IMG/VR virus record: IMGVR_UViG_2734482773_000007
Origin: a virus
Taxonomy: Duplodnaviria > Heunggongvirae > Uroviricota > Caudoviricetes
DNA: 42,304 nucleotides
Direction: 5' to 3' (one strand)
The notes below the pieces were generated by a model. It saw nothing but the letters and a program-made list of their open reading frames with translations, was not told the origin of the DNA and searched no databases. A program made the translations under genes and the position numbers. How positions within the stretch are numbered: the first letter of the stretch is position 1; each line of letters opens with the position of its first letter. Shown here in pieces: positions 27,999 through 42,304 of this stretch.

Positions 27999-29144
27999 AT
28001 GGCACAGGGCTTGCCTGTATCAAACGTTGTTAATGTTGATGTGATCATGTCGCCGCGTGCAGCATCAGGGCGAAATTTTGGTGCATTACTCATTCTCGGC
28101 CCGTCCACAATCATTCCGGTAAGTGAGCGCATTCGCCGTTATTCTGCCGCGGAAGATATTGGAAAAGATTTTGGCGTGGAATCACCAGAATATAAGGCTG
28201 CGCAGGTGTTTTTCTCACAATCACCGAAACCTCAGGAGGTTTTTGTTGGTCGTTGGGTGAAAACGAAGGGAGACAGCGAACAGGCCACGCCTGAGACGCT
28301 GGAGCAGGCTGTGAATGCCATGCTCGATTATACTTCATGGTATGGGCTGGGGATTGCTGACGATGAAGATATTCCGGATGCAGACTGGCTGAAAGTGGCT
28401 GCGGCGATCGAATCCTCTTCTGTAAGCCGTATTCTGGCGATTACGACAAGCGATGAGAAATGCCTGCAGACTGCATCCAGCGATGATTTGGCATCAAAAC
28501 TGAAAACCGCCGGATATTCACGCAGTTTTATTCAGTATTCATTGGGTAATAAATACGCTGCGTTATCTGCATTTGGCCGGGCATTCACGGTTAATTTCAA
28601 TGGCAGTAATACCGCGATTACGCTCAAGTTTAAGCAGGAGCCGGGTGTCGGGTATGAAACACTGACAGTCAGCCAGGCATCGGCACTTGATGCAAAAAAC
28701 TGCAATGTGTTCGTGTACTACCAGAATGATACAGCTATCCTCCAGCAGGGAGTGATGGCTAACGGCGATTTCTTTGATGAACGCCACGGCCTGGACTGGT
28801 TACAGAATTATGTGCAGACCAACCTCTATAACCTGCTTTATACCAGCACCACGAAAGTTCCCCAGACTGAAGCCGGTATTACCCGACTGTTATCAAATGT
28901 TGAAAAATCACTGGATCAGGCCGTTCAGAATGGACTGATTGCTCCGGGCGTATGGAACGGGGGCGACCTTGGTCAGCTGTCATCAGGTGACACACTGCCC
29001 AAAGGTTATTACGTATACGCCCAGCCGCTGAATGAACAGGCACAATCAGAACGTGAAGCCCGTAAGGCTCCGGTGATTCAGGCTGCAATAAAACTTGCAG
29101 GCGCGGTTCATTACGCTGACGTACAGATTAACGTTGTTCGCTAA
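27999..29144 (+). CDS. tail sheath-like protein
   Basis: 381 aa directly upstream of tube-like, chaperone and tape-measure genes; assignment mainly positional. Confidence 0.5.
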
Positions 29145-29154
29145 GGGGAAGTGA

Positions 29155-29595
29155 ATGTCTACCTATTCTTTTATGGATGTCACTGCGACGCTGACCGGGC
29201 CGACCGGTTCGATTGACCTCGGGTACGGTTCTGCAAGTTCTGAAGAGGGGATTGTGGTTGCGATGGGCGGTCCTAAAAACACCATGACCGTCGGTGCTGA
29301 TGGTGAAGTGATGCACAGTCTCCATGCAGATAAAAGCGGGACGATTACCGTTAACCTTCTGAAGACATCACCGACAAATAAAAAATTGTCGCTGGCGTAT
29401 AACGCACAGAGCCAGTCTTCTGCCACATGGGGGAATAACGTTATTGTGATCCGAAACAAGGTCAGCGGCGACATCATCACGGCACGTAGTGTTGCGTTCC
29501 AGAAACAACCGGATAATGCCAACGCTAAAACCGGTAATACGATGCCGTGGGTGTTTGACTGCGGCAAGATTGACCAGGTTCTCGGGGAGTTTTAA
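29155..29595 (+). CDS. tail tube-like protein
   Basis: 146 aa between sheath-like gene and tail assembly chaperone. Confidence 0.5.
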   Translation: MSTYSFMDVTATLTGPTGSIDLGYGSASSEEGIVVAMGGPKNTMTVGADGEVMHSLHADKSGTITVNLLKTSPTNKKLSLAYNAQSQSSATWGNNVIVIRNKVSGDIITARSVAFQKQPDNANAKTGNTMPWVFDCGKIDQVLGEF

Positions 29596-29598
29596 TAC

Positions 29599-30051
29599 AT
29601 GGAATTCGAAATCAAAGGCGTGAAATATCGCGCGGTAAAACTCAGCGTTTTTGACCAGCTGAAAGTGACCCGCAAACTTCTGCCGGTGCTGGCAGGAATG
29701 ATGTCAGATTTCGGGAGCATTCGCTCCCGTTTGCCTGCTGACGGCAAAATCGACACCGTGAAATTCGAGCAGTTAAAACCGGTGTTTGAAACCATGCTCC
29801 CGCGTATCGCTGAGGAATTGTCTTCCCTGACCGAAGATGACACCGATGCGATTATTCATCCCTGTCTTGCGGTGGTATCGCGGCGTCATATGGACGGATG
29901 GGTGCCGGTATTTACCCAGGGCGAACTGATGTTTGATGATATTGACTTGCTGGTCATGCTGCAGCTGGTGGCGCGGGTGGTCGCCAATTCGCTGGGAAAT
30001 TTTTTGCCTACATCCCTTACCAGCACGACGCAGAGCCTGCAACAGGGCTGA
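29599..30051 (+). CDS. tail assembly chaperone (G-like, short form)
   Basis: 150 aa immediately upstream of tape measure; contains slippery run AAATTTTTTG near its 3' end. Confidence 0.6.
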   Translation: MEFEIKGVKYRAVKLSVFDQLKVTRKLLPVLAGMMSDFGSIRSRLPADGKIDTVKFEQLKPVFETMLPRIAEELSSLTEDDTDAIIHPCLAVVSRRHMDGWVPVFTQGELMFDDIDLLVMLQLVARVVANSLGNFLPTSLTSTTQSLQQG

Positions 30052-30239
30052 CGTTTAACAGCCTGCCGGACGGGCTGTCCTACCTTCTCAATCCGGTTGA
30101 CGCCGGGTTAATTCCTTATACAGCACTTAAAGATGGCTCTGTCGATTTGTACGACATTGCTCTCTTGAATGACCATCTGGCGGTAAAAGCGGATAACCAG
30201 CGGCGCATTGAGAAATGGAGAGAGGATAATGAACGCTGA
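29997..30239 (+). other. putative -1 programmed frameshift site and extension (GT-like long form of chaperone)
   Basis: Slippery heptamers A_AAT_TTT / T_TTT_TTG at 29997-30006; the -1 frame stays open from there to the TGA at 30237-30239 and encodes a plausible 78-residue extension overlapping the tape-measure start. Confidence 0.5.
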
Positions 30240-32217
30240 AACTATTAAAGATTTCCTCGTCTCGCTTGGCTTTAGTGTGGATGATGCAGGAGCGAAAAAG
30301 TTCGGTTCTGTCCTCGCCGGTACAACTGCAAATGTCATCAAAATGGGGCTGGCCGTCGAAGGAACTGCACTGTCCGTGGTGGCCTTCACGGCTAAGATTG
30401 CCTCCGGCCTGGATAATCTTTACTGGGCGTCACAGCGCACTGGCGCGACAGTCCAGGGAATTCAGTCTATTGGCTATGCGGTTTCACAGGTTGGCGGCAG
30501 TGTGGACGCTGCGCGATCTTCTCTGGAAAGCCTCTCCCGGTTTATTCGTAACAATCCCGGGGCAGAGGGATTTCTGAATCGCCTGGGGGTACAGACACGG
30601 GATGCCAGCGGTAACATGCGTGACATGGCCGCTATTTTTACAAGTGTAGGCCAGAAGCTCAGCGGCATGCCGTATTACCGGGCTAACCAGTATGCGCAGA
30701 TGCTGGGCATTGACGAAAATACCCTTATGGCGATGCGCCGGGGTGTGGGTGGCTTCTCCGGGCAGTACAGCGCAATGGCGAAAGCTATCGGCTTCAATGC
30801 TGACGAGGCGGCCAGAAGCTCCAACAAATTTATGACCTCCCTGCGTGAGTTTGGCGCGATGGCAGGCATGGCCCGTGACAAAATCGGCTCTAATCTTGCG
30901 GGTGGGCTTGCGGGTTCGCTGGACACCCTGCGCCGCCATATCCTGGACAACTTCCCTCGTATCGAGCAGACCCTGACGAAAGCCATAAAAGGCATTCTGG
31001 CGCTCGGGGATATTATCGGGCGGCTGTTCTTCAGACTGATTGAGGGGACATCAGGCCTCATCACCTGGTGGCAATCGCTGGATAAGCAAACGCGGGAGTT
31101 GATCTCGCTGTTTGGCGCACTGACGATTGCGCTGCGCATTCTGAACAGTACGTTCTGGATGTCGCCGATTGGCCTCATTACCGCGCTGGCGGCGGGTATT
31201 GCCCTCCTGTGGGAGGACTATCAGACCTGGAAGGAAGGCGGCGACAGCCTGATTGACTGGGGCAAGTGGAAACCGGAGGTCGATGCCGCGCTGAAGATGG
31301 TTCGTGACCTTAAAACGACCGTTAACGACCTGGCGAAAGCGCTGGCGAAACTACTCAATATTGACCCCAAATCATGGTCCCTGAAGTGGGATTTCAGCAA
31401 CTTCATCGACCAGATGGGCGAATTCAGCAAAATGCTGAACATGATCGCCGACCTGCTCAACGCTATCAAAGATGGCCGCTGGGCTGATGCCGTCAGCATC
31501 GGCAAACAGATACTTAATCAGGGCAGCGAAAATCCGTCAGCGATGCCGATGGTTACAGACAGCGCTAACAGTACTGCCGACTGGATTAAAGAGCACTGGG
31601 GATTCGATCCCCGCAGTGTGGGCCGGACGGTACGCGGCTGGTTTGGTGATGATGAGCCGGAACAACATGCACAGGCTACGAAACGAGGAGAACGGAATAA
31701 CAATCCGGGAAACCTTAATTTTGCTGGTCAGGCGGGGGCTTCTCTTGAACGCCCGGGCGGGCGATTTGCCAGATTTGAAACTGCTTTTGATGGATTACGG
31801 GCTCTTGCTCGTCAGTTAATGCTGTACGCCGGACGGGGAATAAACAGTGTGGAGAAAATTATCTCTACCTGGGCACCTGCGTCTGATAATAACAACACAA
31901 CTGCGTATATCAGGGCTGTATCGCAACGACTGGGAGTGGATCCCCGGGCTGCCCTGAATATGAGCGATCCGCAAACCATGTCAGCATTGATGAGCAGCAT
32001 TATCCAGCATGAAAATGGAAGAAATATCTATTCCCGAGAGCTGATTAATAAGGCTGCCGTGGCAGGAATTAGTGGCAAAGTGACAGAGGTTAACCAGCAA
32101 AATACCTACCACATTTACGGTGGCGGAGATCCGCACGCTGTCGGTAATGAGGTTGCACGTCGGCAACAGTCTGCAAATGCTCAGGTCATGCGAAGTAATC
32201 AGGTGAGGGTGGGTTAG
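30229..32217 (+). CDS. tail tape measure protein
   Basis: About 660 aa, helical/Gly-Ala-rich with hydrophobic segment; start set at ATG 30229 after GGAGAGAGG RBS (the ATG at 30208 is part of that RBS). Confidence 0.75.
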   Translation: MNAETIKDFLVSLGFSVDDAGAKKFGSVLAGTTANVIKMGLAVEGTALSVVAFTAKIASGLDNLYWASQRTGATVQGIQSIGYAVSQVGGSVDAARSSLESLSRFIRNNPGAEGFLNRLGVQTRDASGNMRDMAAIFTSVGQKLSGMPYYRANQYAQMLGIDENTLMAMRRGVGGFSGQYSAMAKAIGFNADEAARSSNKFMTSLREFGAMAGMARDKIGSNLAGGLAGSLDTLRRHILDNFPRIEQTLTKAIKGILALGDIIGRLFFRLIEGTSGLITWWQSLDKQTRELISLFGALTIALRILNSTFWMSPIGLITALAAGIALLWEDYQTWKEGGDSLIDWGKWKPEVDAALKMVRDLKTTVNDLAKALAKLLNIDPKSWSLKWDFSNFIDQMGEFSKMLNMIADLLNAIKDGRWADAVSIGKQILNQGSENPSAMPMVTDSANSTADWIKEHWGFDPRSVGRTVRGWFGDDEPEQHAQATKRGERNNNPGNLNFAGQAGASLERPGGRFARFETAFDGLRALARQLMLYAGRGINSVEKIISTWAPASDNNNTTAYIRAVSQRLGVDPRAALNMSDPQTMSALMSSIIQHENGRNIYSRELINKAAVAGISGKVTEVNQQNTYHIYGGGDPHAVGNEVARRQQSANAQVMRSNQVRVG

Positions 32218-33108: not shown

Positions 33109-34176
33109 ATGTCACAGAACTGGATGAGACATTTCGAGCTGCAGCTTGTGGACGGGAACGGTCAGGGAATTGAGCTAAGTGATTTCAAAGTCACCTTTAC
33201 GATCGACTGGTTCAACATCAGCAGCGCGTCCCGGGTAGGGACTATCAAAATTTATAACCTCTCGGCAGATACTGTGAACCGAATTACCGGGCAGGAGTTT
33301 TCGAAAGTGCGTCTGATTGCGGGTTACGACGGTATCGCGCCGGAGGTGTCGGCAAGCGATGTCGGGACCGTGCGGGAGGTTGATGCGGCGGACGTGGGCC
33401 AGAGTGATGGCCGCAACTACGGACTGATTTTCAGCGGTGAAATTCGCTACTCGGTCACAGGAAAAGACAGCCCGGTTGATTCCTACGTCCTGATTCAGGC
33501 AGCCGATACAGATCTGGCTTTTGCCACCAGTATAACCTCACAGACGCTGGCTGCCGGTTACACGGTCGCTGATGTGAACCGTGCGCTGATGAAAGACTTC
33601 GAAGCCAAAGGTGCGACCGAAGGCCTGACGCCTGAAATGCCTGCTACTGTATTCCCCCGGGGGCGGGTACTCTTTGGCATGACGCGGCATCTTATGGATA
33701 ATGTAGCCGGGCAATGTGGCGCAACATGGCAATTCGTGGATGGTCAACGCCAGATGGTGGCGAATAATGAATATGTTCACGAAGCGATTGTGCTCAACAG
33801 CGCTACCGGGCTTATTGGCATGCCGCAGCAGACTATCGGTAACGGCGTAAACGTCCGCGCGCTTATTAATCCGAACATCCGGGTTAACGGGCTCATTCAA
33901 CTGGATCAGGCTTCAGTGTATCGTACCGCGTTGTCGAACAACGATATCGCGATGGCCGGTGGGCAGATCACCGACCAGAACACGGACGGAAATATTACGC
34001 TAAGCGGCACCACATCGCAGCCTGCCAGCATCGCAACGGATGGCGTTTATATTGTGCGTGGGATTATGTACACTGGCGACACAAGGGGGCAGGCGTGGTA
34101 CATGGATATGATGTGTGAAGCACGTGGCGCGGCTGATCTACTTTCGTCCTCAGCGCAGCAAAGGATTTATTCATGA
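33109..34176 (+). CDS. baseplate hub-like protein (Mu gp44 / late control D-like position)
   Basis: 355 aa; position after tape measure in Mu-like order. Confidence 0.45.
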   Translation: MSQNWMRHFELQLVDGNGQGIELSDFKVTFTIDWFNISSASRVGTIKIYNLSADTVNRITGQEFSKVRLIAGYDGIAPEVSASDVGTVREVDAADVGQSDGRNYGLIFSGEIRYSVTGKDSPVDSYVLIQAADTDLAFATSITSQTLAAGYTVADVNRALMKDFEAKGATEGLTPEMPATVFPRGRVLFGMTRHLMDNVAGQCGATWQFVDGQRQMVANNEYVHEAIVLNSATGLIGMPQQTIGNGVNVRALINPNIRVNGLIQLDQASVYRTALSNNDIAMAGGQITDQNTDGNITLSGTTSQPASIATDGVYIVRGIMYTGDTRGQAWYMDMMCEARGAADLLSSSAQQRIYS

Positions 34177-34520
34177 AGCGTATGAAGTTAGTTTTGACAA
34201 TTTCGTTATTATTTTCTTGTTCAGCAGCTTTTGCTGATTTGCAATGCGGCGGATATCTACTTCATGCAGCTGATAACGGTTGGACAAAAATCAACGGTGA
34301 GCAGGTAACATCACAGAAGATTACGTTTCTTGGTAAGAAAGATGACTGGGACAACGTTAAAACGAACATGGGCCTGATGCCTTCTCGCGATGGCAACAAT
34401 TACGGCTTTGAGTTTGTGAAGCGTAACGGAAAAGCTTTCCTGAACGTCCAGCTTCTGCAGAACAGCATGGATGCGCCTAAAATCATCGGATCATTCCCTT
34501 GTAAAAAGGCGTTACGCTAA
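34173..34520 (+). CDS. small secreted protein (cleavable signal peptide), moron-like
   Basis: 115 aa; N-terminus MKRMKLVLTISLLFSCSAAFA then DLQ fits Sec signal with AFA cleavage site; AT-rich; inserted between baseplate hub and spike genes. Confidence 0.55.
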   Translation: MKRMKLVLTISLLFSCSAAFADLQCGGYLLHAADNGWTKINGEQVTSQKITFLGKKDDWDNVKTNMGLMPSRDGNNYGFEFVKRNGKAFLNVQLLQNSMDAPKIIGSFPCKKALR

Positions 34521-34547
34521 AGTTTGATGTCAATCTTCCGAGATGAG

Positions 34548-34582
34548 CGCTTTAAGGTTGACGAGATATTGTTCAAAGTTCA
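34548..34582 (+). promoter_or_regulatory. candidate promoter for the 34616..35771 cassette (TTGACG-N17-CACAAT)
   Basis: Read from sequence; weak -10. Confidence 0.25.
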
Positions 34583-34615
34583 CAATCACAATCCCTTTAG
34601 TAAGAGAAATAATCC

Positions 34616-35389
34616 ATGGCGGCAGGCATCCCATTAGAAAAAGCGCAAAAATATATTGAACAATTCAATGCGCTTCTATTGGATAGGGAAAGTTTAGATC
34701 CCTTCACTGAAAAGAAAATTCGAGAGGAACTTTCTGTCTCTCCAACGCCTGCTACCAACATTGCACTATCTTATCTGGATGCAATAACCGGAAAGATTGA
34801 AAGCGCGTTACGTTATCTCAGGATAAGCCTAGAAGTAAACGATGTAACGTTGGCAATGCACTATCATCACATTTTAATTAATACATTTAGCTATAATGAA
34901 CTCAAGGATGTCTATGTCCCGCTGGCAAAGAAGTATCGGACAAAACTCTTTAGTCACAACGCATACAGTTGGGCGTACCGTTGCGGCGAGCGTGAACAGT
35001 TAAAATTTTATATGGAAGAGCACATTAAGCTTCTTTCTGAATCAGAAGGCAGGAGTAATGCTATGAAGCACAAAGAAGAACTCCTTGCAGAAATGGATAA
35101 TTTCTATAGCGCCACACAGTGCTCGAAGGAACAGTTCCAGACCTTAGCATCCATAATCTGGGGCTTGCTAAGTGAATACAAGGCTACGACAGGTTTCGTT
35201 CAGCTTAGTGGAAGCGGTTGCTATGTTGTTGATATTAAAAATCTTGAGCCTAAAACTATTGCCAAAATGAACTTCGACTTGGCTGATAGAGTCTGCGCTG
35301 AATCTAAACTGGATGATTGTTCCCTGTTAGCTAGATTTACCTCTCCGCGTCAGTTGCATACGGGGGTGAGCTACCATGTCGGTAACTAG
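34616..35389 (+). CDS. hypothetical helical protein, first gene of AT-rich two-gene cassette
   Basis: 257 aa, AT-rich codons, no signal peptide, no catalytic motif recognised; overlaps next gene by 14 bp. Confidence 0.55.
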   Translation: MAAGIPLEKAQKYIEQFNALLLDRESLDPFTEKKIREELSVSPTPATNIALSYLDAITGKIESALRYLRISLEVNDVTLAMHYHHILINTFSYNELKDVYVPLAKKYRTKLFSHNAYSWAYRCGEREQLKFYMEEHIKLLSESEGRSNAMKHKEELLAEMDNFYSATQCSKEQFQTLASIIWGLLSEYKATTGFVQLSGSGCYVVDIKNLEPKTIAKMNFDLADRVCAESKLDDCSLLARFTSPRQLHTGVSYHVGN

Positions 35390-35771
35390 CAATCAGATTC
35401 TCGATACCGCTCGATTATGTCTGTCTGAAAATATTGAGAGTGGATTTCGAAGCGCTATCTCAAGGGCGTATTACAGTATGTTACATGAGTCTATTAGCTC
35501 ACTTACTGCCATACCGCATTTTACCCATGAGCATCACAAAAATACTGTGGGTTATATGTCAACGCCCTCAGAGTGCAAATCAGAGCCATACCCGACAAAT
35601 ACACTGAAATCCCTAGCTTTCGTACTTCGCCAGTGGCGGGATGCTAGAAATGAAGCTGACTATGATCTGACGAATGTGACTGTTTCGAAAGAGATGGGAC
35701 AGGATGCAATCGAGGCTGCTGAACTCTATTTTGAGCGCTGGGAACAGCTAAAGTCTGCTAGAGTTTCATGA
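35376..35771 (+). CDS. small helical protein with HEPN-like features, second gene of cassette
   Basis: 131 aa; SRAYYSMLHES contains an R-x6-H spacing and AYY..LH helix start reminiscent of HEPN domains; tentative. Confidence 0.5.
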   Translation: MSVTSNQILDTARLCLSENIESGFRSAISRAYYSMLHESISSLTAIPHFTHEHHKNTVGYMSTPSECKSEPYPTNTLKSLAFVLRQWRDARNEADYDLTNVTVSKEMGQDAIEAAELYFERWEQLKSARVS

Positions 35772-35788
35772 ATAAAATTAACGTTATC

Positions 35789-35813
35789 AAACCCGCTTCG
35801 GCGGGTTTTTTGC
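35789..35813 (+). terminator. rho-independent terminator (AAACCCGC-TTCG-GCGGGTTT + T-tract)
   Basis: Perfect 8-bp stem, UUCG tetraloop, U-run; 18 nt after cassette stop. Confidence 0.8.
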
Positions 35814-35830
35814 TTTCTGGAGCCTACTAA

Positions 35831-36583
35831 ATGGCAGTATCTGACCAGACCCGCAGCGGCGACCTTGCCGAAACATTCAAATCTGAACGGGAAACAACAA
35901 AGAACCAGATCCGTGTCGCCTTGCCTGGCATTATTCAGTCATTCGATCCTGATGCGGTGACGGCAGTTGTGCAGCCTGCTATCCGTTCGGTTGAAAAGGA
36001 TAATGACGGCAACCGCATTACCAAAAATTACCCATTGCTGGTGGATGTGCCAGTGGTATTCCCGCGCGGCGGAGGATGTACGCTAACATTCCCAGTTAAA
36101 GCCGGTGATGAATGTTTGGTGATTTTTGCCGATCGTTGTATTGATTTCTGGTGGCAGAGTGGCGGGATACAGGAGTCGGTCGATGACAGAATGCATGATT
36201 TATCGGATGCGTTTTGTATTGTCGGTCCCCAGTCGCAGGCAAGGAAGATTAGCGGTATTAATACCAGTGCCACACAGTTGCGTAGTGATGACGGCAGCAC
36301 CTATTTTGAGCTTAATCCTGATACCAGGAAAATTAAAATTGTCGCTCCAGGTGGTCTTGATGTGGTTGTCCCTCTGGCTGATTTTTCTGAGAAAGTAACC
36401 ATTCATGGCCTGTTAACCTGGATGGGTGGCATGGTGGGGTCTGTTGTTTCTGGTGTGGCTTCAAAAATCACTGGTGCTGTTGAGTTCTTGGGGAGCGTTA
36501 AGGCTAACGGCAAGCCAATCGATGATACGCACACTCATGGCGGTGTTCAGCGCGGTGGAAGCAATACCGATGGGGTAAACTGA
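35831..36583 (+). CDS. baseplate spike / assembly protein V-like
   Basis: 250 aa; gpV/Mu gp45-like position; Gly-rich C-terminus. Confidence 0.6.
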   Translation: MAVSDQTRSGDLAETFKSERETTKNQIRVALPGIIQSFDPDAVTAVVQPAIRSVEKDNDGNRITKNYPLLVDVPVVFPRGGGCTLTFPVKAGDECLVIFADRCIDFWWQSGGIQESVDDRMHDLSDAFCIVGPQSQARKISGINTSATQLRSDDGSTYFELNPDTRKIKIVAPGGLDVVVPLADFSEKVTIHGLLTWMGGMVGSVVSGVASKITGAVEFLGSVKANGKPIDDTHTHGGVQRGGSNTDGVN

Positions 36584-39909: not shown

Positions 39910-40481
39910 TGGCATTCAGAATGAGTGAACAATCACGAACCATCAAAATTTATAATCTGCTGGCCGGAACTAATGAATTTATTGGTGAGGGTGACGCATA
40001 TATTCCACCTCATACAGGTCTGCCAGCAAACAGTACCGATATTGCACCGCCAGATATTCCTGCAGGCTTTGTGGCTGTTTTCAACAGTGATGAGGCATCG
40101 TGGCATCTCGTTGAAGACCATCGGGGTAAAACCGTCTATGACGTGGCTTCCGGCGACGCGTTATTTATTTCTGAACTTGGCCCATTACCGGAAAATGTCA
40201 CCTGGTTGTCGCCGGATGGGGAGTTTCAGAAGTGGAACGGCACAGCTTGGGTGAAAGATGCAGAAGCAGAAAAACTCTTCCGGATCCGGGAGGCGGAAGA
40301 GAAAAAGACAAGATTAATCCAGGAAGCGACTGATAACATAACAATTCTGCAGGATGCCGTTAATTTTGAAATGGCAACTGATGAGGAAATCTCGATGCTA
40401 TCTTCCTGGAAAAAATACCGGGTATTAGTGAGTCGGATTGATATAAATACAGCCCCGGATATCGTATGGCCAGAGCTGTGA
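39909..40481 (+). CDS. tail fibre assembly protein (Tfa)
   Basis: 190 aa; typical Tfa features incl. C-terminal ...IVWPEL; directly after fibre gene. Confidence 0.7.
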
Positions 40482-40491
40482 TTAAACGGAA

Positions 40492-41037
40492 TTATGTGTG
40501 AGATGAGTTATAAATAATTTCAGAGTGAAATTTAGTAATGAATGTGGAGTCATCAGGAATGTCATGCAGTACCAATGCATGAGCTCCTATTTTTACATTA
40601 TTCCCTATATGCACTTTGCCACCAAGGATGGTGGCGTTACAGCCAATGGTTACATTATTTCCTATGACAATATCCATATCATTAAATTCACCGCGAAGTC
40701 CAATAGTTACCCCTGGCTTAATTGAACAATTTTCACCTATTGTAACTTTGTGACCGATAACAACGCCATTGAGATAAGATATGTCGAACCCTTTACCAAT
40801 ATTTACAGTTAAGGGAACGGTTACATTGTATTTATCAAGAATGAAGCGTTCTATTTTTCCTGCAATCTTTCGCCGGTATCCTCCTTTATCAAAAAGATAT
40901 TTTGCTACGCGCCACCAAAATAAATAACGTAATCTTCTGTGTTTTATTGCGCGAACAATTGCTTTTCGCCAGGAGAAAGGGCGTTTATAACCTATTACTT
41001 CATAGTGTATACAGTTTTTAAGTTCACTAATATTCAT
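40492..41037 (-). CDS. hexapeptide-repeat acyltransferase (left-handed beta-helix; candidate lysogenic-conversion acetyltransferase)
   Basis: 181 aa; repeated [LIV]-G-x-x-x-x-I-G units (VVIGHKVTIGENCSIKPGVTIG ... IGNNVTIGCNATILGGKVHIGNNVKIG); AT-rich; convergent with Tfa, 10-bp gap. Confidence 0.7.
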   Translation of the reverse strand: MNISELKNCIHYEVIGYKRPFSWRKAIVRAIKHRRLRYLFWWRVAKYLFDKGGYRRKIAGKIERFILDKYNVTVPLTVNIGKGFDISYLNGVVIGHKVTIGENCSIKPGVTIGLRGEFNDMDIVIGNNVTIGCNATILGGKVHIGNNVKIGAHALVLHDIPDDSTFITKFHSEIIYNSSHT

Positions 41038-41121
41038 ATGTCTATTATTCAGTAAAGATAATTCTGTAACTTATTATTATATTAAGTTTAATGAGATTTT
41101 TCTACAGTTTACTGTCTTACT

Positions 41122-41250
41122 CTCACGCCGGAGCAATGGGCGCAGGCTGGACGACAAATTGCATCAGGAGTTTCTCGCCAGAAAATGGCGATCATCTATG
41201 ATGTTGGCGTATCGACTTTGTATAAGAAGTTTCCGGTCGGAGATGAATGA
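41122..41250 (+). pseudogene. 3' remnant of a serine DNA invertase (Pin/Gin/Hin family), C-terminal HTH only
   Basis: Hand translation LTPEQWAQAGRQIASGVSRQKMAIIYDVGVSTLYKKFPVGDE* matches my recollection of the Pin C-terminus; in-frame stop at 41092 and only 84 bp separate it from the acetyltransferase start, so the catalytic domain is absent. Confidence 0.6.
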
Positions 41251-41252
41251 AA

Positions 41253-41285
41253 CCGTGGCACGTCGTATGCAAGAACGTGCCACGG
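41253..41285. other. perfect 10-bp inverted repeat CCGTGGCACG-N13-CGTGCCACGG
   Basis: Read from sequence; lies right after the invertase-remnant stop and downstream of the minus-strand gene 41332..41979; possible terminator. Confidence 0.4.
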
Positions 41286-41331
41286 CTGGCTGATAAGCTT
41301 GTAAAAATCTTGAACAGGGAGTGGAGCATTT

Positions 41332-41979
41332 CTATGAAGCTAATTTGTTTAATTTCATTTGTAGCGACTTTACTTCTTGGTCGATAATGTTGAATCCCTT
41401 ATTGACTGCATCTCTTAGTTCTGCATCAATATTTTTTATCCCTTGAGCATAATCTACCATTACATCTATTTTTTCATCATGTAATCTCTTATACATGGTT
41501 TTATCTTTGTTATTGTCAGCCATACCAATAAGGATTTTTTCATAATCCTCAATGAGTTTGTTGTTTCCTTTAAATGATTGTATTAATGACCGTGAATATG
41601 TGTAGATATTAATTATTGAGTCTCTGGCAGAATCATTTAGTTTTGCAATGACATTCGCATTTTGCTCATAGAATGTGAAATTATCATCCCCTACAGGGAA
41701 AGTGAGAATTAACATCTGTCCGGGTTTGATATTATCAATGTGTGTTTTCATCCTTTTATTATATAAATTGATTAGGGTGAAAACTTCTCCCTTAACACCT
41801 TTTAATACTGAAAGTTGCAATTCAAGGGATTCTCTTTCTGTCTCTACTTTAGACAGCTTAGCTTGTTGGGTAACTCCTTTTAGGGTAAACCATCCGCCAA
41901 TAAGAGTACCAACTAGAGCTGTGAGGGAGGAGGATAACCATCCAGGAATGCTATTTAAAAAATTACTAAATTCACTCAT
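41332..41979 (-). CDS. AT-rich hypothetical protein with N-terminal transmembrane anchor
   Basis: 215 aa; N-terminal hydrophobic segment LSSSLTALVGTLIGGWFTL then coiled-coil-like region; strongly AT-rich. Confidence 0.5.
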   Translation of the reverse strand: MSEFSNFLNSIPGWLSSSLTALVGTLIGGWFTLKGVTQQAKLSKVETERESLELQLSVLKGVKGEVFTLINLYNKRMKTHIDNIKPGQMLILTFPVGDDNFTFYEQNANVIAKLNDSARDSIINIYTYSRSLIQSFKGNNKLIEDYEKILIGMADNNKDKTMYKRLHDEKIDVMVDYAQGIKNIDAELRDAVNKGFNIIDQEVKSLQMKLNKLAS

Positions 41980-42037
41980 TATAAGTACTCGCTAATATTG
42001 AACGATATATATATCAAATTATTATAAAACTCGTCAG

Positions 42038-42304
42038 CTACTGGAGAAGGCTACCTGAACTTCGATCTATTCCTGCATCCATATAGTTGATGGTCTTCTG
42101 GAGCTCTTCGATTAGGGCAACAGCTTTTGCTCGAGAAATGCATATTAGTTGATCCGGAAATTCTTGTAAGGGCCAGTTTGGTATACAGGCCATGTTATCA
42201 GTGAAGGATGCAGACAAGTAAACTTCATTGGTAACCAGAGAATAGCTTACCTCAAAATTGGTGAGTTCCGGCAAACTGCTAACGTTTGACTCTTTTCTGC
42301 GCAT
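42038..42304 (-). CDS. hypothetical protein (N-terminus at window edge; may extend beyond)
   Basis: 88-aa ORF whose ATG coincides with the last three bases of the window, so the true start may be upstream outside the window. Confidence 0.35.
   Translation of the reverse strand: MRRKESNVSSLPELTNFEVSYSLVTNEVYLSASFTDNMACIPNWPLQEFPDQLICISRAKAVALIEELQKTINYMDAGIDRSSGSLLQ

What the first reader, a model, noticed from the sequence alone, without database searches (positions are those of the whole stretch)
29997..30239. Programmed -1 frameshift in the tail assembly chaperone
The run AAATTTTTTG provides overlapping slippery heptamers near the end of the chaperone gene. After a -1 shift the reading frame remains open for a further 78 codons of plausible protein sequence (… TGLTFNSLPDGLSYLLNPVDAGLIPYTALKDGSVDLYDIALLNDHLAVKADNQRRIEKWREDNER) and ends inside the start of the tape-measure gene, the conserved G/GT arrangement.
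Basis: seen in the sequence. Interest (0 to 1): 0.45.

Follow-up and report, generated by a model that had tools for sequence, protein, structure and literature searches.

The report
Phage tail chaperone −1 frameshift site
A prophage tail-assembly chaperone gene carries a strongly conserved slippery run that most likely lets some ribosomes slip back one base and make a longer "GT" protein; this is real but an ordinary, well-known feature of long-tailed phages, and databases mis-annotate it as a separate small gene.

Summary
The chaperone gene (29599-30051, Pfam Phage_TAC_15) contains GGGAAATTTTTTG (29994-30006). The -1 frame then stays open for 78 codons to TGA 30237-30239, overlapping the tape-measure ATG (30229) by 11 nt.

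The -1 segment is real coding sequence. It hits Pfam DUF6889 (E 1e-20). It has no ATG/GTG/TTG until only 30 codons remain. Across 81 diverged relatives it shows coding periodicity and no stop codons, against 323 and 431 in the other frames.

In 97 of 99 related loci (Enterobacterales, Acinetobacter, Burkholderia, Bordetella, Ralstonia) T lies -1 to G, with a slippery motif at the same alignment position. Codon choice at the site is far from background: GGA 75/81 vs 15%, TTT 81/81, TTG 77/78 vs 9%. No RNA stimulator was found, as in phage P2, whose E/E+E' frameshift uses the same TTTTTTG.

This is a new member of a known kind. Practical value: RefSeq splits T off as a "DUF6889 family protein" from a CTG start, or names it "NTP pyrophosphohydrolase"; DUF6889 is best read as the T domain. 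No experiment exists for this family.

The parts
29599..30051 (+). Gene G: tail assembly chaperone, 0-frame product of 150 aa
   Evidence: ORF. Pfam Phage_TAC_15 E 2.5e-30. PHROG 1688 'tail assembly chaperone' E 3.6e-64. AlphaFold model of the 97%-identical fusion P0001 matches BFVD myovirus tail assembly chaperones, E 1e-8, TM about 0.7 normalised to the target. Sits between the tube gene and the tape-measure gene.
29994..30006 (+). Slippery run GGGAAATTTTTTG: three overlapping in-frame heptamers, G_GGA_AAT (29994), A_AAT_TTT (29997) and T_TTT_TTG (30000)
   Evidence: Sequence. In 81 unique diverged relatives T_TTT_TTN is present in 81/81, X_XXT_TTT in 74/81 and G_GGA_AAT in 71/81. Synonymous-site identity peaks here (0.75 vs about 0.50 baseline).
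29997..30006 (+). Most likely shift window: tRNA-Phe on UUU (30001-30003), either in the A site (A_AAU_UUU) or in the P site (U_UUU_UUG)
   Evidence: Inference from comparison. A Phe codon preceded by T is the only element common to all 19 phage-panel loci. TTTTTTG is the P2 E/E+E' shift site (PMC3091744). H_HH.U_UU.Y heptamers and the U_UU.Y tetramer are among the most shift-prone in E. coli (PMC4066793).
30003..30239 (+). T segment: -1 frame extension, 78 codons plus TGA; the C-terminal part of the 213-aa GT fusion
   Evidence: Open frame. Pfam DUF6889 E 1.2e-20. PHROG 4364. Codon-position divergence 0.28/0.24/0.56, and 0 stops in this frame vs 323/431 in the other two over 81 loci. No ATG/GTG/TTG before 30147.
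30003..30051 (+). Dual-coded stretch: G C-terminal tail in frame 0, linker of GT in frame -1
   Evidence: Mean pairwise amino-acid identity is 0.59 in the -1 frame vs 0.38 in the 0 frame over the same nucleotides. Modelled as a disordered linker, pLDDT <50 for residues 134-159.
30217..30231 (+). Purine-rich Shine-Dalgarno-like run GGAGAGAGG and the ATG of the tape-measure gene, embedded in the last codons of T (…EKWREDNER*)
   Evidence: Sequence. The same AAATGGAGAGAGG(A/C)TAATGAACGCTGA is found in SEN34, YP3, 606R2 and Mulock. An 11-nt overlap of T stop and TMP start is the commonest arrangement (39/81 loci).
30229..32217 (+). Tail tape-measure protein gene (662 aa); presumed binding partner of the G domain
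   Evidence: PHROG 2276 'tail length tape measure protein' E 8e-283. Weak Pfam PhageMin_Tail hit. The partner role is inferred from the lambda model (PMC5009743).
29155..29595 (+). Tail tube gene (146 aa) immediately upstream; presumed binding partner of the T domain
   Evidence: Pfam KPP10_Orf10 / DUF3277 tube family E 6.8e-61. The partner role is inferred by analogy with lambda gpV.

Best explanation
This is the G/GT-type programmed -1 ribosomal frameshift of a temperate SEN34-like (Brunovirus-like) myovirus prophage of E. coli.

Most ribosomes translating the chaperone gene end at TGA 30049-30051 and make the 150-aa chaperone G. A minority slip back one nucleotide on the run A_AAT_TTT_TTG (29997-30006), with tRNA-Phe re-pairing perfectly from UUU to UUU. 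They continue in the -1 frame to TGA 30237-30239 and make a 213-aa GT protein. GT consists of the G domain, a roughly 25-residue flexible linker and a small helical T domain (Pfam DUF6889).

The signal is the slippery run alone; there is no RNA stimulator.

By analogy with lambda and P2 (inferred, not shown here), many copies of G plus a few of GT coat the tape-measure protein. The T domain recruits the tube protein, so the fixed G:GT ratio set by slippage efficiency is what tail assembly needs. Neither protein would end up in the virion.

Shown here: the sequence anatomy, the coding status of T, the lack of an independent start, and family-wide selection on the slip site. Inferred: that the shift is ribosomal, its efficiency, the exact slip codon, and the protein partners.
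For: Anatomy:
- Three in-register heptamers, a 78-codon -1 extension, and a T stop overlapping the TMP start.

Identity of the parts:
- G = Phage_TAC_15 (E 2.5e-30) and T = DUF6889 (E 1.2e-20).
- PHROG tail assembly chaperone.
- Fold match to myovirus TACs.
- Gene order sheath-tube-G/T-TMP.

T cannot start on its own:
- The first ATG/GTG/TTG in its frame leaves only 30 of 97 codons.
- PGAP has to invoke CTG starts with no SD.
- The position of the first canonical start varies from 11 to 146 codons before the stop, or is absent, among relatives.

T is translated in the -1 frame from the slip site:
- Codon-position divergence of 0.28/0.24/0.56 equals that of the G body.
- 0 vs 323/431 stops.
- In the dual-coded stretch the -1 frame is the better conserved, 0.59 vs 0.38.

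Conservation:
- tblastn of GT gives two pieces in all 40 phage records.
- T is -1 to G in 97/99 loci.
- The slip motif sits at the same alignment column but changes sequence: A_AAT_TTT, C_CCT_TTT, G_GGT_TTT, T_TTT_TTT.

Selection on synonymous codons at the site vs background in the same genes:
- GGA 75/81 vs 0.15.
- AAT 75/75 vs 0.45.
- TTT 81/81 vs 0.53.
- TTG 77/78 vs 0.09.
- A narrow peak of synonymous-site conservation lies at the site.

Precedent:
- P2 E/E+E' shifts -1 at TTTTTTG without a downstream structure (PMC3091744).
- G-T frameshifting is general in long-tailed phages (PMC5009743).
- Heptamer and tetramer efficiencies in E. coli (PMC4066793).
- Homologous sites are annotated as frameshift products in Mulock and Magia.
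- All 82 close relatives keep exactly T6.
Against: - There is no experimental detection of GT for this phage family; the SEN34 and Mulock papers do not mention it.
- No stimulatory RNA element was found: window fold z -0.72 and +0.54, family consensus energy about 0, no Rfam hit. Efficiency may therefore be low, although lambda and P2 also lack one.
- Two distant members (Edwardsiella ZHS: GAT TTT; Burkholderia E192a: TCT TTT) have no strict heptamer, only a T_TTT tetramer.
- Sequence analysis cannot separate ribosomal slippage from RNA-polymerase slippage on the T6 run.
- The GT structure model has only moderate confidence (mean pLDDT 66), and there is no PDB match.
Confidence: 0.9

Rival explanations
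1. T is an independent small gene (the RefSeq/PGAP model): a 54-58 aa 'DUF6889 family protein' initiated at a CTG codon (window 30063 or 30075) downstream of the G stop, with no recoding.
For: PGAP annotates it this way in E. coli genomes. Databases hold 28 clusters of 43-108 aa stand-alone ORFs of this kind.
Against: - The starts used are CTG, with no Shine-Dalgarno sequence in the 20-25 nt upstream.
- Gene callers pick different starts in different genomes, and the first canonical start is not positionally conserved.
- The -1 frame is conserved as protein upstream of these starts, right back to the slip site, and better than the overlapping G frame (0.59 vs 0.38).
- This model gives no reason for the selection on GGA-AAT-TTT-TTG codon choice, or for T always lying in the -1 frame with an open overlap (97/99).
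Confidence: 0.04
2. The fusion arises by transcriptional slippage. RNA polymerase adds one extra U on the T6 template run, so a fraction of mRNAs carry U7 and encode GT in a single frame, without ribosomal slippage.
For: A T6 homopolymer is invariant in the enterobacterial members (81/81; 82/82). A U7 message would encode exactly the GT protein, as the natural T7 variant P0001/L181 shows.
Against: - Distant members keep the two-frame arrangement with only T4 runs (CCCTTTTA, GGGAAATTTTA) or an interrupted run (Bordetella GGA AAT ACT TTC).
- By general knowledge, efficient bacterial transcriptional slippage needs runs of about 8-9 or more. This is my recollection and was not checked here.
- Selection on the rare GGA codon upstream of the T run (75/81 vs 15%) fits tRNA re-pairing (A_AAT), not polymerase slippage.
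- The same TTTTTTG in P2 is described as a translational frameshift.
Confidence: 0.04
3. The two-frame arrangement is a frameshift mutation, sequencing error or decaying pseudogene in this particular prophage.
For: Homopolymer runs are error-prone. Single loci with T7 (L181) or T5 (L180) do exist.
Against: The same T6 and -1 arrangement is found in 82/82 close relatives, in 300 complete E. coli genomes with >=80% coverage, in plaque-forming phages (606R2, SEN34, YP3, Mulock), and in 97/99 diverged loci.
Confidence: 0.01

Closest known systems
Phage P2 E / E+E' tail chaperone frameshift (Christie et al. 2002, as described in PMC3091744)
   Same: Contractile-tailed temperate coliphage. The chaperone gene lies between the tube gene and the tape-measure gene. 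The -1 shift is at the identical heptamer T_TTT_TTG. There is no downstream RNA structure. The extension ORF lacks its own start.
   Different: No detectable sequence relationship: the Pfam scan of G/GT returned only Phage_TAC_15 and DUF6889. P2 E is 91 aa and E+E' 142 aa, against 150 and 213 aa here. Here TTTTTTG is embedded in a longer run with two further heptamers.
Phage lambda G / GT frameshift (Levin, Hendrix & Casjens 1993; Xu, Hendrix & Duda 2004, 2013, 2014; reviewed in PMC5009743)
   Same: Same gene position and logic: a low-level -1 shift near the 3' end of G gives GT. The first heptamer here (G_GGA_AAT) differs from lambda's G_GGA_AAG (the lambda heptamer is cited from my own knowledge) only in the last base. 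The functional model of G binding the tape measure and T binding the tail tube subunit is taken from lambda.
   Different: Lambda is a siphovirus. There is no sequence similarity. Lambda slips with tRNA-Lys on AAG, whereas this family's common element is tRNA-Phe on UUU. The G:GT ratio and the partners have not been measured here.
Annotated 'tape measure chaperone frameshift product' of Klebsiella phage Mulock (MN098327, QFG06717.1) and Burkholderia phage Magia (NC_070954, YP_010668111.1)
   Same: Same protein family (G 58% and 42% identical, T 64% and 42%). Same position. Mulock has the identical GGGAAATTTTTTG run.
   Different: Magia uses C_CCT_TTT. These are database annotations only, with no experiment and no discussion in the Mulock genome paper. 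The window's own lineage (E. coli prophages, 606R2, SEN34, YP3) is not annotated with the frameshift.

Membership tests
G/GT-type tail assembly chaperone programmed -1 frameshift (Xu, Hendrix & Duda 2004 definition) | Two overlapping ORFs located between the major tail (tube) gene and the tape-measure gene | tested here: met
   Tube 29155-29595, G 29599-30051, T to 30239, TMP from 30229.
G/GT-type tail assembly chaperone programmed -1 frameshift (Xu, Hendrix & Duda 2004 definition) | The second ORF is in the -1 frame relative to the first and lacks its own translation initiation signals | tested here: met
   -1 frame. No ATG/GTG/TTG until 30147, and no SD before the CTG codons used by PGAP.
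G/GT-type tail assembly chaperone programmed -1 frameshift (Xu, Hendrix & Duda 2004 definition) | A slippery X_XXY_YYZ heptamer in the 0-frame register inside the overlap | tested here: met
   G_GGA_AAT, A_AAT_TTT and T_TTT_TTG at 29994-30006.
G/GT-type tail assembly chaperone programmed -1 frameshift (Xu, Hendrix & Duda 2004 definition) | The arrangement and slip site are conserved among homologues despite sequence divergence | tested here: met
   97/99 loci are -1. The motif sits at the same column with changing sequence. Codon-choice selection. T is coding in the -1 frame only.
G/GT-type tail assembly chaperone programmed -1 frameshift (Xu, Hendrix & Duda 2004 definition) | Both G and GT proteins are made from one start at a fixed ratio, and both are required for tail assembly | not testable with these tools
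   Needs a western blot or mass spectrometry, a reporter assay and genetics. No such data were found for this family.
G/GT-type tail assembly chaperone programmed -1 frameshift (Xu, Hendrix & Duda 2004 definition) | G binds the tape-measure protein, T binds the tail tube subunit, and neither is in the virion | not testable with these tools
   Inferred from lambda (PMC5009743).
Pfam Phage_TAC_15 (PF21822) | HMM score above the gathering threshold over most of the model | tested here: met
   106.1 bits vs cutoff 22, model positions 1-122 of 127.
Pfam DUF6889 (PF21829) | HMM score above the gathering threshold | tested here: met
   73.4 bits vs cutoff 23.9, model positions 2-40 of 40, on the -1 frame peptide.
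P2 gpE / E+E' protein family (sequence membership) | Detectable sequence similarity to P2 E/E+E' family models | tested here: not met
   The Pfam scan at E<=0.01 returned only Phage_TAC_15 and DUF6889 for G and GT. The site works like P2's but is not a sequence member of that family.
Frameshift sites with an RNA stimulator (dnaX / IS3-type) | A conserved downstream hairpin or pseudoknot, or an upstream SD-like element | tested here: not met
   Window z-scores -0.72 and +0.54. RNAalifold consensus about 0 kcal/mol over 38 diverse sequences, upstream and downstream. No Rfam hit.

The most novel reading that the evidence does not exclude
The shift signal may not be a single heptamer. It may be a 13-nt 'multi-slip' run centred on tRNA-Phe. 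Across the whole family the only universal element is a Phe codon preceded by U (a U_UUY tetramer). The P-site codon is free to change (AAU, CCU, GGU, UUU), and in two phages it does not permit tandem re-pairing at all. In the enterobacterial branch two or three overlapping heptamers would then give successive chances to slip. That would raise efficiency without any RNA stimulator and would produce two GT isoforms (…GNFF-AY… and …GNFL-AY…).
Probability: 0.25. Interest if true: 0.35.

Novelty: new member of a known kind. Interest (0 to 1): 0.15.

Why it matters
Biologically this is the expected G/GT recoding of a long-tailed phage, so it changes no concept. Its value is practical.

1. The prophage family is common. 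333 of 5,426 complete E. coli genomes hold a match. RefSeq systematically splits the T part off as a 54-58 aa "DUF6889 family protein" from a CTG start, and many nr entries call it "NTP pyrophosphohydrolase". The correct model is one joined CDS with ribosomal slippage.

2. It gives Pfam DUF6889 and PHROG 4364 (both "unknown function") a specific reading: the T domain of the GT chaperone in the DUF3383-sheath / DUF3277-tube myovirus tail lineage.

3. The family is a clean comparative example. The position of the slip site is conserved while its sequence turns over, and the site works without an RNA stimulator.

Tried and rejected
- **RNA stimulator.** I folded the window 3' of the site (z -0.72) and across it (z +0.54). 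I ran RNAalifold on 38 sequences of <85% identity, upstream, downstream and both; consensus energy was about 0 and mean z-scores were -0.5 to +0.7. Rfam at gathering threshold and at E<=1 gave nothing relevant. Rejected.
- **Upstream nucleotide conservation** (…GTGGCGCGGGTGGTCGCC…), considered as an SD-like stimulator. The synonymous-site scan shows the conservation peak is narrow and centred on the slip run, not upstream. Not pursued further.
- **Solved-structure relatives of GT.** The sequence search gave none. Foldseek against the PDB gave all E>3. Only the BFVD predicted viral structures were informative.
- The first attempt to seed the genome scan with an 18-sequence alignment failed because it was too diverse; a 9-sequence enteric alignment worked.
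- **Literature on SEN34 and Mulock.** Neither paper mentions the chaperone or the frameshift.
- **-2/+1 shifting on the T run.** The +1 frame closes at 30058 after a short non-conserved tail. Rejected as a source of a meaningful product.
- **The three ORFs at 34173-35771 as a defence system.** No PADLOC or Pfam hits.

Full report
**Observation.** The 0-frame ORF 29599-30051 encodes a 150-aa protein that ends …VANSLGNFLPTSLTSTTQSLQQG*. Around the site the codons are TCG CTG GGA AAT TTT TTG CCT. In the register needed for tandem tRNA slippage, the run GGGAAATTTTTTG (29994-30006) holds three overlapping X_XXY_YYZ heptamers: G_GGA_AAT, A_AAT_TTT and T_TTT_TTG. The -1 frame is open from 29946 to TGA 30237-30239, and after a shift it adds exactly 78 codons with the quoted peptide. 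The -1 stop overlaps the ATG (30229) of the next gene by 11 nt. The coordinates and the description are correct.

**Is it more than chance?** A 78-codon open stretch alone is not rare. However, among the 56 in-frame strict heptamers in the 90 ORFs of >=90 aa in the window, the median -1 open length is 11 codons. Only eight heptamers have a -1 frame running >=30 codons past the 0-frame stop. Three of them are this site. The other five lie in shadow ORFs, one in an alternative frame of the tape-measure gene and the rest antisense to real genes.

**Context.** The window is a temperate myovirus prophage. Its genes include:
- a CI-like repressor, a VapE-like replication protein, antiterminator Q and a holin;
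- terminase, portal and capsid genes;
- a neck terminator, a DUF3383 sheath (27999-29144) and a DUF3277/KPP10_Orf10 tube (29155-29595);
- the chaperone and the tape-measure protein (30229-32217);
- Dit-like, plug, hub, spike, baseplate J, fibre and fibre-assembly genes.

It is 97% identical over this region to Escherichia phages vB_EcoM-606R2/689R2/611R5/683R1, 84% to Yersinia phage YP3 and 77% to Salmonella phage SEN34 (genus Brunovirus). 333 of 5,426 complete E. coli genomes hold a match.

**What the two reading frames encode.**
- G matches Pfam Phage_TAC_15 (E 2.5e-30) and PHROG 1688 "tail assembly chaperone" (E 3.6e-64).
- The -1 peptide on its own matches Pfam DUF6889 (E 1.2e-20) and PHROG 4364, both of unknown function.
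- An AlphaFold model of the natural fused relative P0001 (97% identical to the predicted GT) has a mixed alpha/beta G domain (pLDDT 70-89 in its core), a low-confidence linker at residues 134-159 that spans the shift junction, and a small helical T domain.
- The model has no PDB relative. In BFVD its best matches are myovirus proteins annotated as tail assembly chaperones (E 1e-8, TM about 0.7 normalised to the target).

**T has no start of its own.** In the window's -1 frame the first ATG/GTG/TTG is at 30147, leaving 30 of 97 codons. RefSeq nevertheless annotates a 54- or 58-aa "DUF6889 family protein". The start codons used are CTG (window 30075 or 30063) with no Shine-Dalgarno sequence upstream. 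Public protein collections hold only truncated T pieces of 43-108 aa that begin at different positions. Many are named "NTP pyrophosphohydrolase".

- tblastn with the predicted GT finds 40 phage records. In every one the match is two pieces, meaning two frames, down to about 30% identity in Burkholderia, Acinetobacter, Bordetella, Ralstonia and Providencia phages.
- I fetched 18 phage loci and 80 loci from different bacterial species. In 97 of 99 loci T is in the -1 frame relative to G. The exceptions are a copy with a T5 run (L180) and one with an indel (L131).
- Across 81 unique enterobacterial-type loci, the part of T beyond the G stop shows pairwise nucleotide differences of 0.28/0.24/0.56 at codon positions 1/2/3. 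This is the same pattern as the body of G (0.33/0.22/0.57).
- That part contains no stop codon in the T frame, against 323 and 431 in the other two frames.
- In the stretch coded in both frames, the -1 frame is the better conserved protein (0.59 vs 0.38 identity). Translation of T therefore begins at the slip site, not downstream of the G stop.

**The slip site itself is under selection.** Comparing codon use at the site with background use in the same 81 genes:
- Gly is GGA in 75/81 (background 15%).
- Asn is AAT in 75/75 (45%).
- Phe is TTT in 81/81 (53%).
- The next Leu is TTG in 77/78 (9%).

The Ser and Leu codons just upstream vary freely. Synonymous-site identity is about 0.50 along the gene and peaks narrowly at 0.75 over the site. 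These sequences are not phylogenetically independent, so the binomial P values (1e-23 to 1e-81) are only indicative.

**Which heptamer?**
- In Enterobacterales T_TTT_TTN is present in 81/81 loci, X_XXT_TTT in 74/81 and G_GGA_AAT in 71/81.
- The rare GGA codon can only be explained by A_AAT_TTT or G_GGA_AAT, because the -1 frame is not read upstream of the shift.
- In distant phages the homologous column carries A_AAT_TTT (Acinetobacter), C_CCT_TTT (Burkholderia Magia and BgManors32, WC36-2), G_GGT_TTT_TTC (Ralstonia), T_TTT_TTT (Providencia), or G_GGA_AAT followed by ACT_TTC (Bordetella).
- Two phages (Edwardsiella ZHS, Burkholderia E192a) keep only a T_TTT tetramer.
- The single universal element is a Phe codon preceded by T.
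- Published E. coli measurements rank the U_UU.Y tetramer second among tetramers and place H_HH.U_UU.Y heptamers among the most efficient (PMC4066793). TTTTTTG is the shift site of the P2 E/E+E' chaperone (PMC3091744).

I therefore place the shift within 29997-30006, with tRNA-Phe on UUU 30001-30003 in either the A site or the P site. I cannot resolve which. The two options give GT proteins that differ in one residue (…GNFF-AY… or …GNFL-AY…), and both are 213 aa.

**No stimulator.** The RNA 3' of the site folds no better than shuffled sequence (z -0.72), and the same holds across the site (z +0.54). There is no consensus structure in 38 diverse relatives and no Rfam match. This matches what is reported for P2 and its relatives.

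**Mechanism and function.** The best-supported reading is a programmed -1 ribosomal frameshift. It yields G (150 aa, major product) and GT (213 aa, minor product) from one start. By analogy with lambda (PMC5009743), G and the G part of GT bind the tape-measure protein and the T domain recruits the tube subunit. This functional part is inference.

Rivals:
- Independent initiation of T (PGAP's model) fails on start signals, on conservation upstream of the proposed starts, and on the codon-choice data.
- Transcriptional slippage on T6 cannot be excluded by sequence. It is disfavoured because distant members keep the arrangement with T4 or interrupted runs, and because GGA is under selection.
- A mutation or sequencing error is excluded, since 82/82 close relatives have T6 and the arrangement is family-wide.

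**Comparison with what is known, and novelty.** The site meets all sequence-level criteria of the G/GT class; the protein-level criteria are untestable here. It works like P2 E/E+E' (same heptamer, no structure) but is not a sequence member of that family. Homologous sites are already annotated as frameshift products in two GenBank records, Mulock and Magia, without experiment or discussion. The window's own lineage is not annotated this way. It is a new member of a known kind. The main value is corrected annotation and a functional reading of DUF6889. Interest is low.

Noticed in passing
window 34173-35771: Three ORFs lie between the baseplate hub gene (33109-34176) and the spike gene (35831-36583). 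They encode 115 aa (with a signal-peptide-like N-terminus, MKRMKLVLTISLLFSCSAAFA), 257 aa and 131 aa. None has a Pfam or PADLOC hit. GC is 0.42-0.45 against 0.53-0.57 in the upstream tail genes. The query spanning this region (33900-36000) is only 39% covered in the closest phages. It looks like a variable cargo ('moron') slot inside the tail module.
   Followed up: partly
window 30063-30239 and homologous ORFs in public databases (P0122, P0124, P0125, P0127, P0129 and others): The T segment is widely deposited as a stand-alone 43-78 aa protein named 'NTP pyrophosphohydrolase' or 'DUF6889 family protein'. PGAP starts it at CTG codons. The pyrophosphohydrolase name has no support in any search here and looks like a propagated misannotation.
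   Followed up: yes
L181 (Logan assembly SRR23924998), around position 996-1008; protein P0001: One assembly has GGGAAATTTTTTTG (T7 instead of T6). This hard-wires G and T into a single 213-aa ORF. All 82 close relatives examined have T6, so this is either a homopolymer sequencing error or a rare GT-only mutant.
   Followed up: yes
L180 (Apirhabdus apintestini CP138906.1, second copy) and L131 (Enterobacter sp. R1): These are the only two of 99 loci where T is not -1 to G. L180 has a T5 run (GGA AAT TTT TGC) and a diverged G (37% identity). L131 has an indel downstream. Both are probably decaying prophage copies.
   Followed up: partly
L092/L100 (Acinetobacter phages), L091 (Burkholderia BgManors32), L094 (WC36-2): about 21 nt immediately 3' of the slip site: TTTTATTCAAGGGCTGCTTAC is identical at the nucleotide level in phages of low-GC Acinetobacter and high-GC Burkholderia, although their G proteins are each only about 27-30% identical to the window's G. 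Both reading frames are conserved there (FIQGLLT / FYSRAAY), so dual coding is the likely cause. An RNA or nascent-peptide role was not tested.
   Followed up: no
window 30214-30231: The conserved C-terminus of T (…EKWREDNER) is encoded by AAATGGAGAGAGGATAATGA. This sequence also carries the purine-rich Shine-Dalgarno-like run and the ATG of the tape-measure gene. Synonymous-site identity rises again at the end of T (about 0.63), consistent with this double duty.
   Followed up: partly
window 30229-32217: The C-terminal third of the tape-measure protein (residues about 443-650) matches phage endolysin and tail-transglycosylase families in PHROGs. PGAP names the homologous E. coli gene 'lytic transglycosylase'. 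The tape measure therefore appears to carry a peptidoglycan-degrading domain.
   Followed up: no
window 40400-42304: GC drops to 0.35-0.38 at the right end of the window. This stretch holds a minus-strand hexapeptide-repeat acetyltransferase (40492-41037) and an ORF with no family hit (41332-41979). It may be lysogenic-conversion cargo or the host flank.
   Followed up: no
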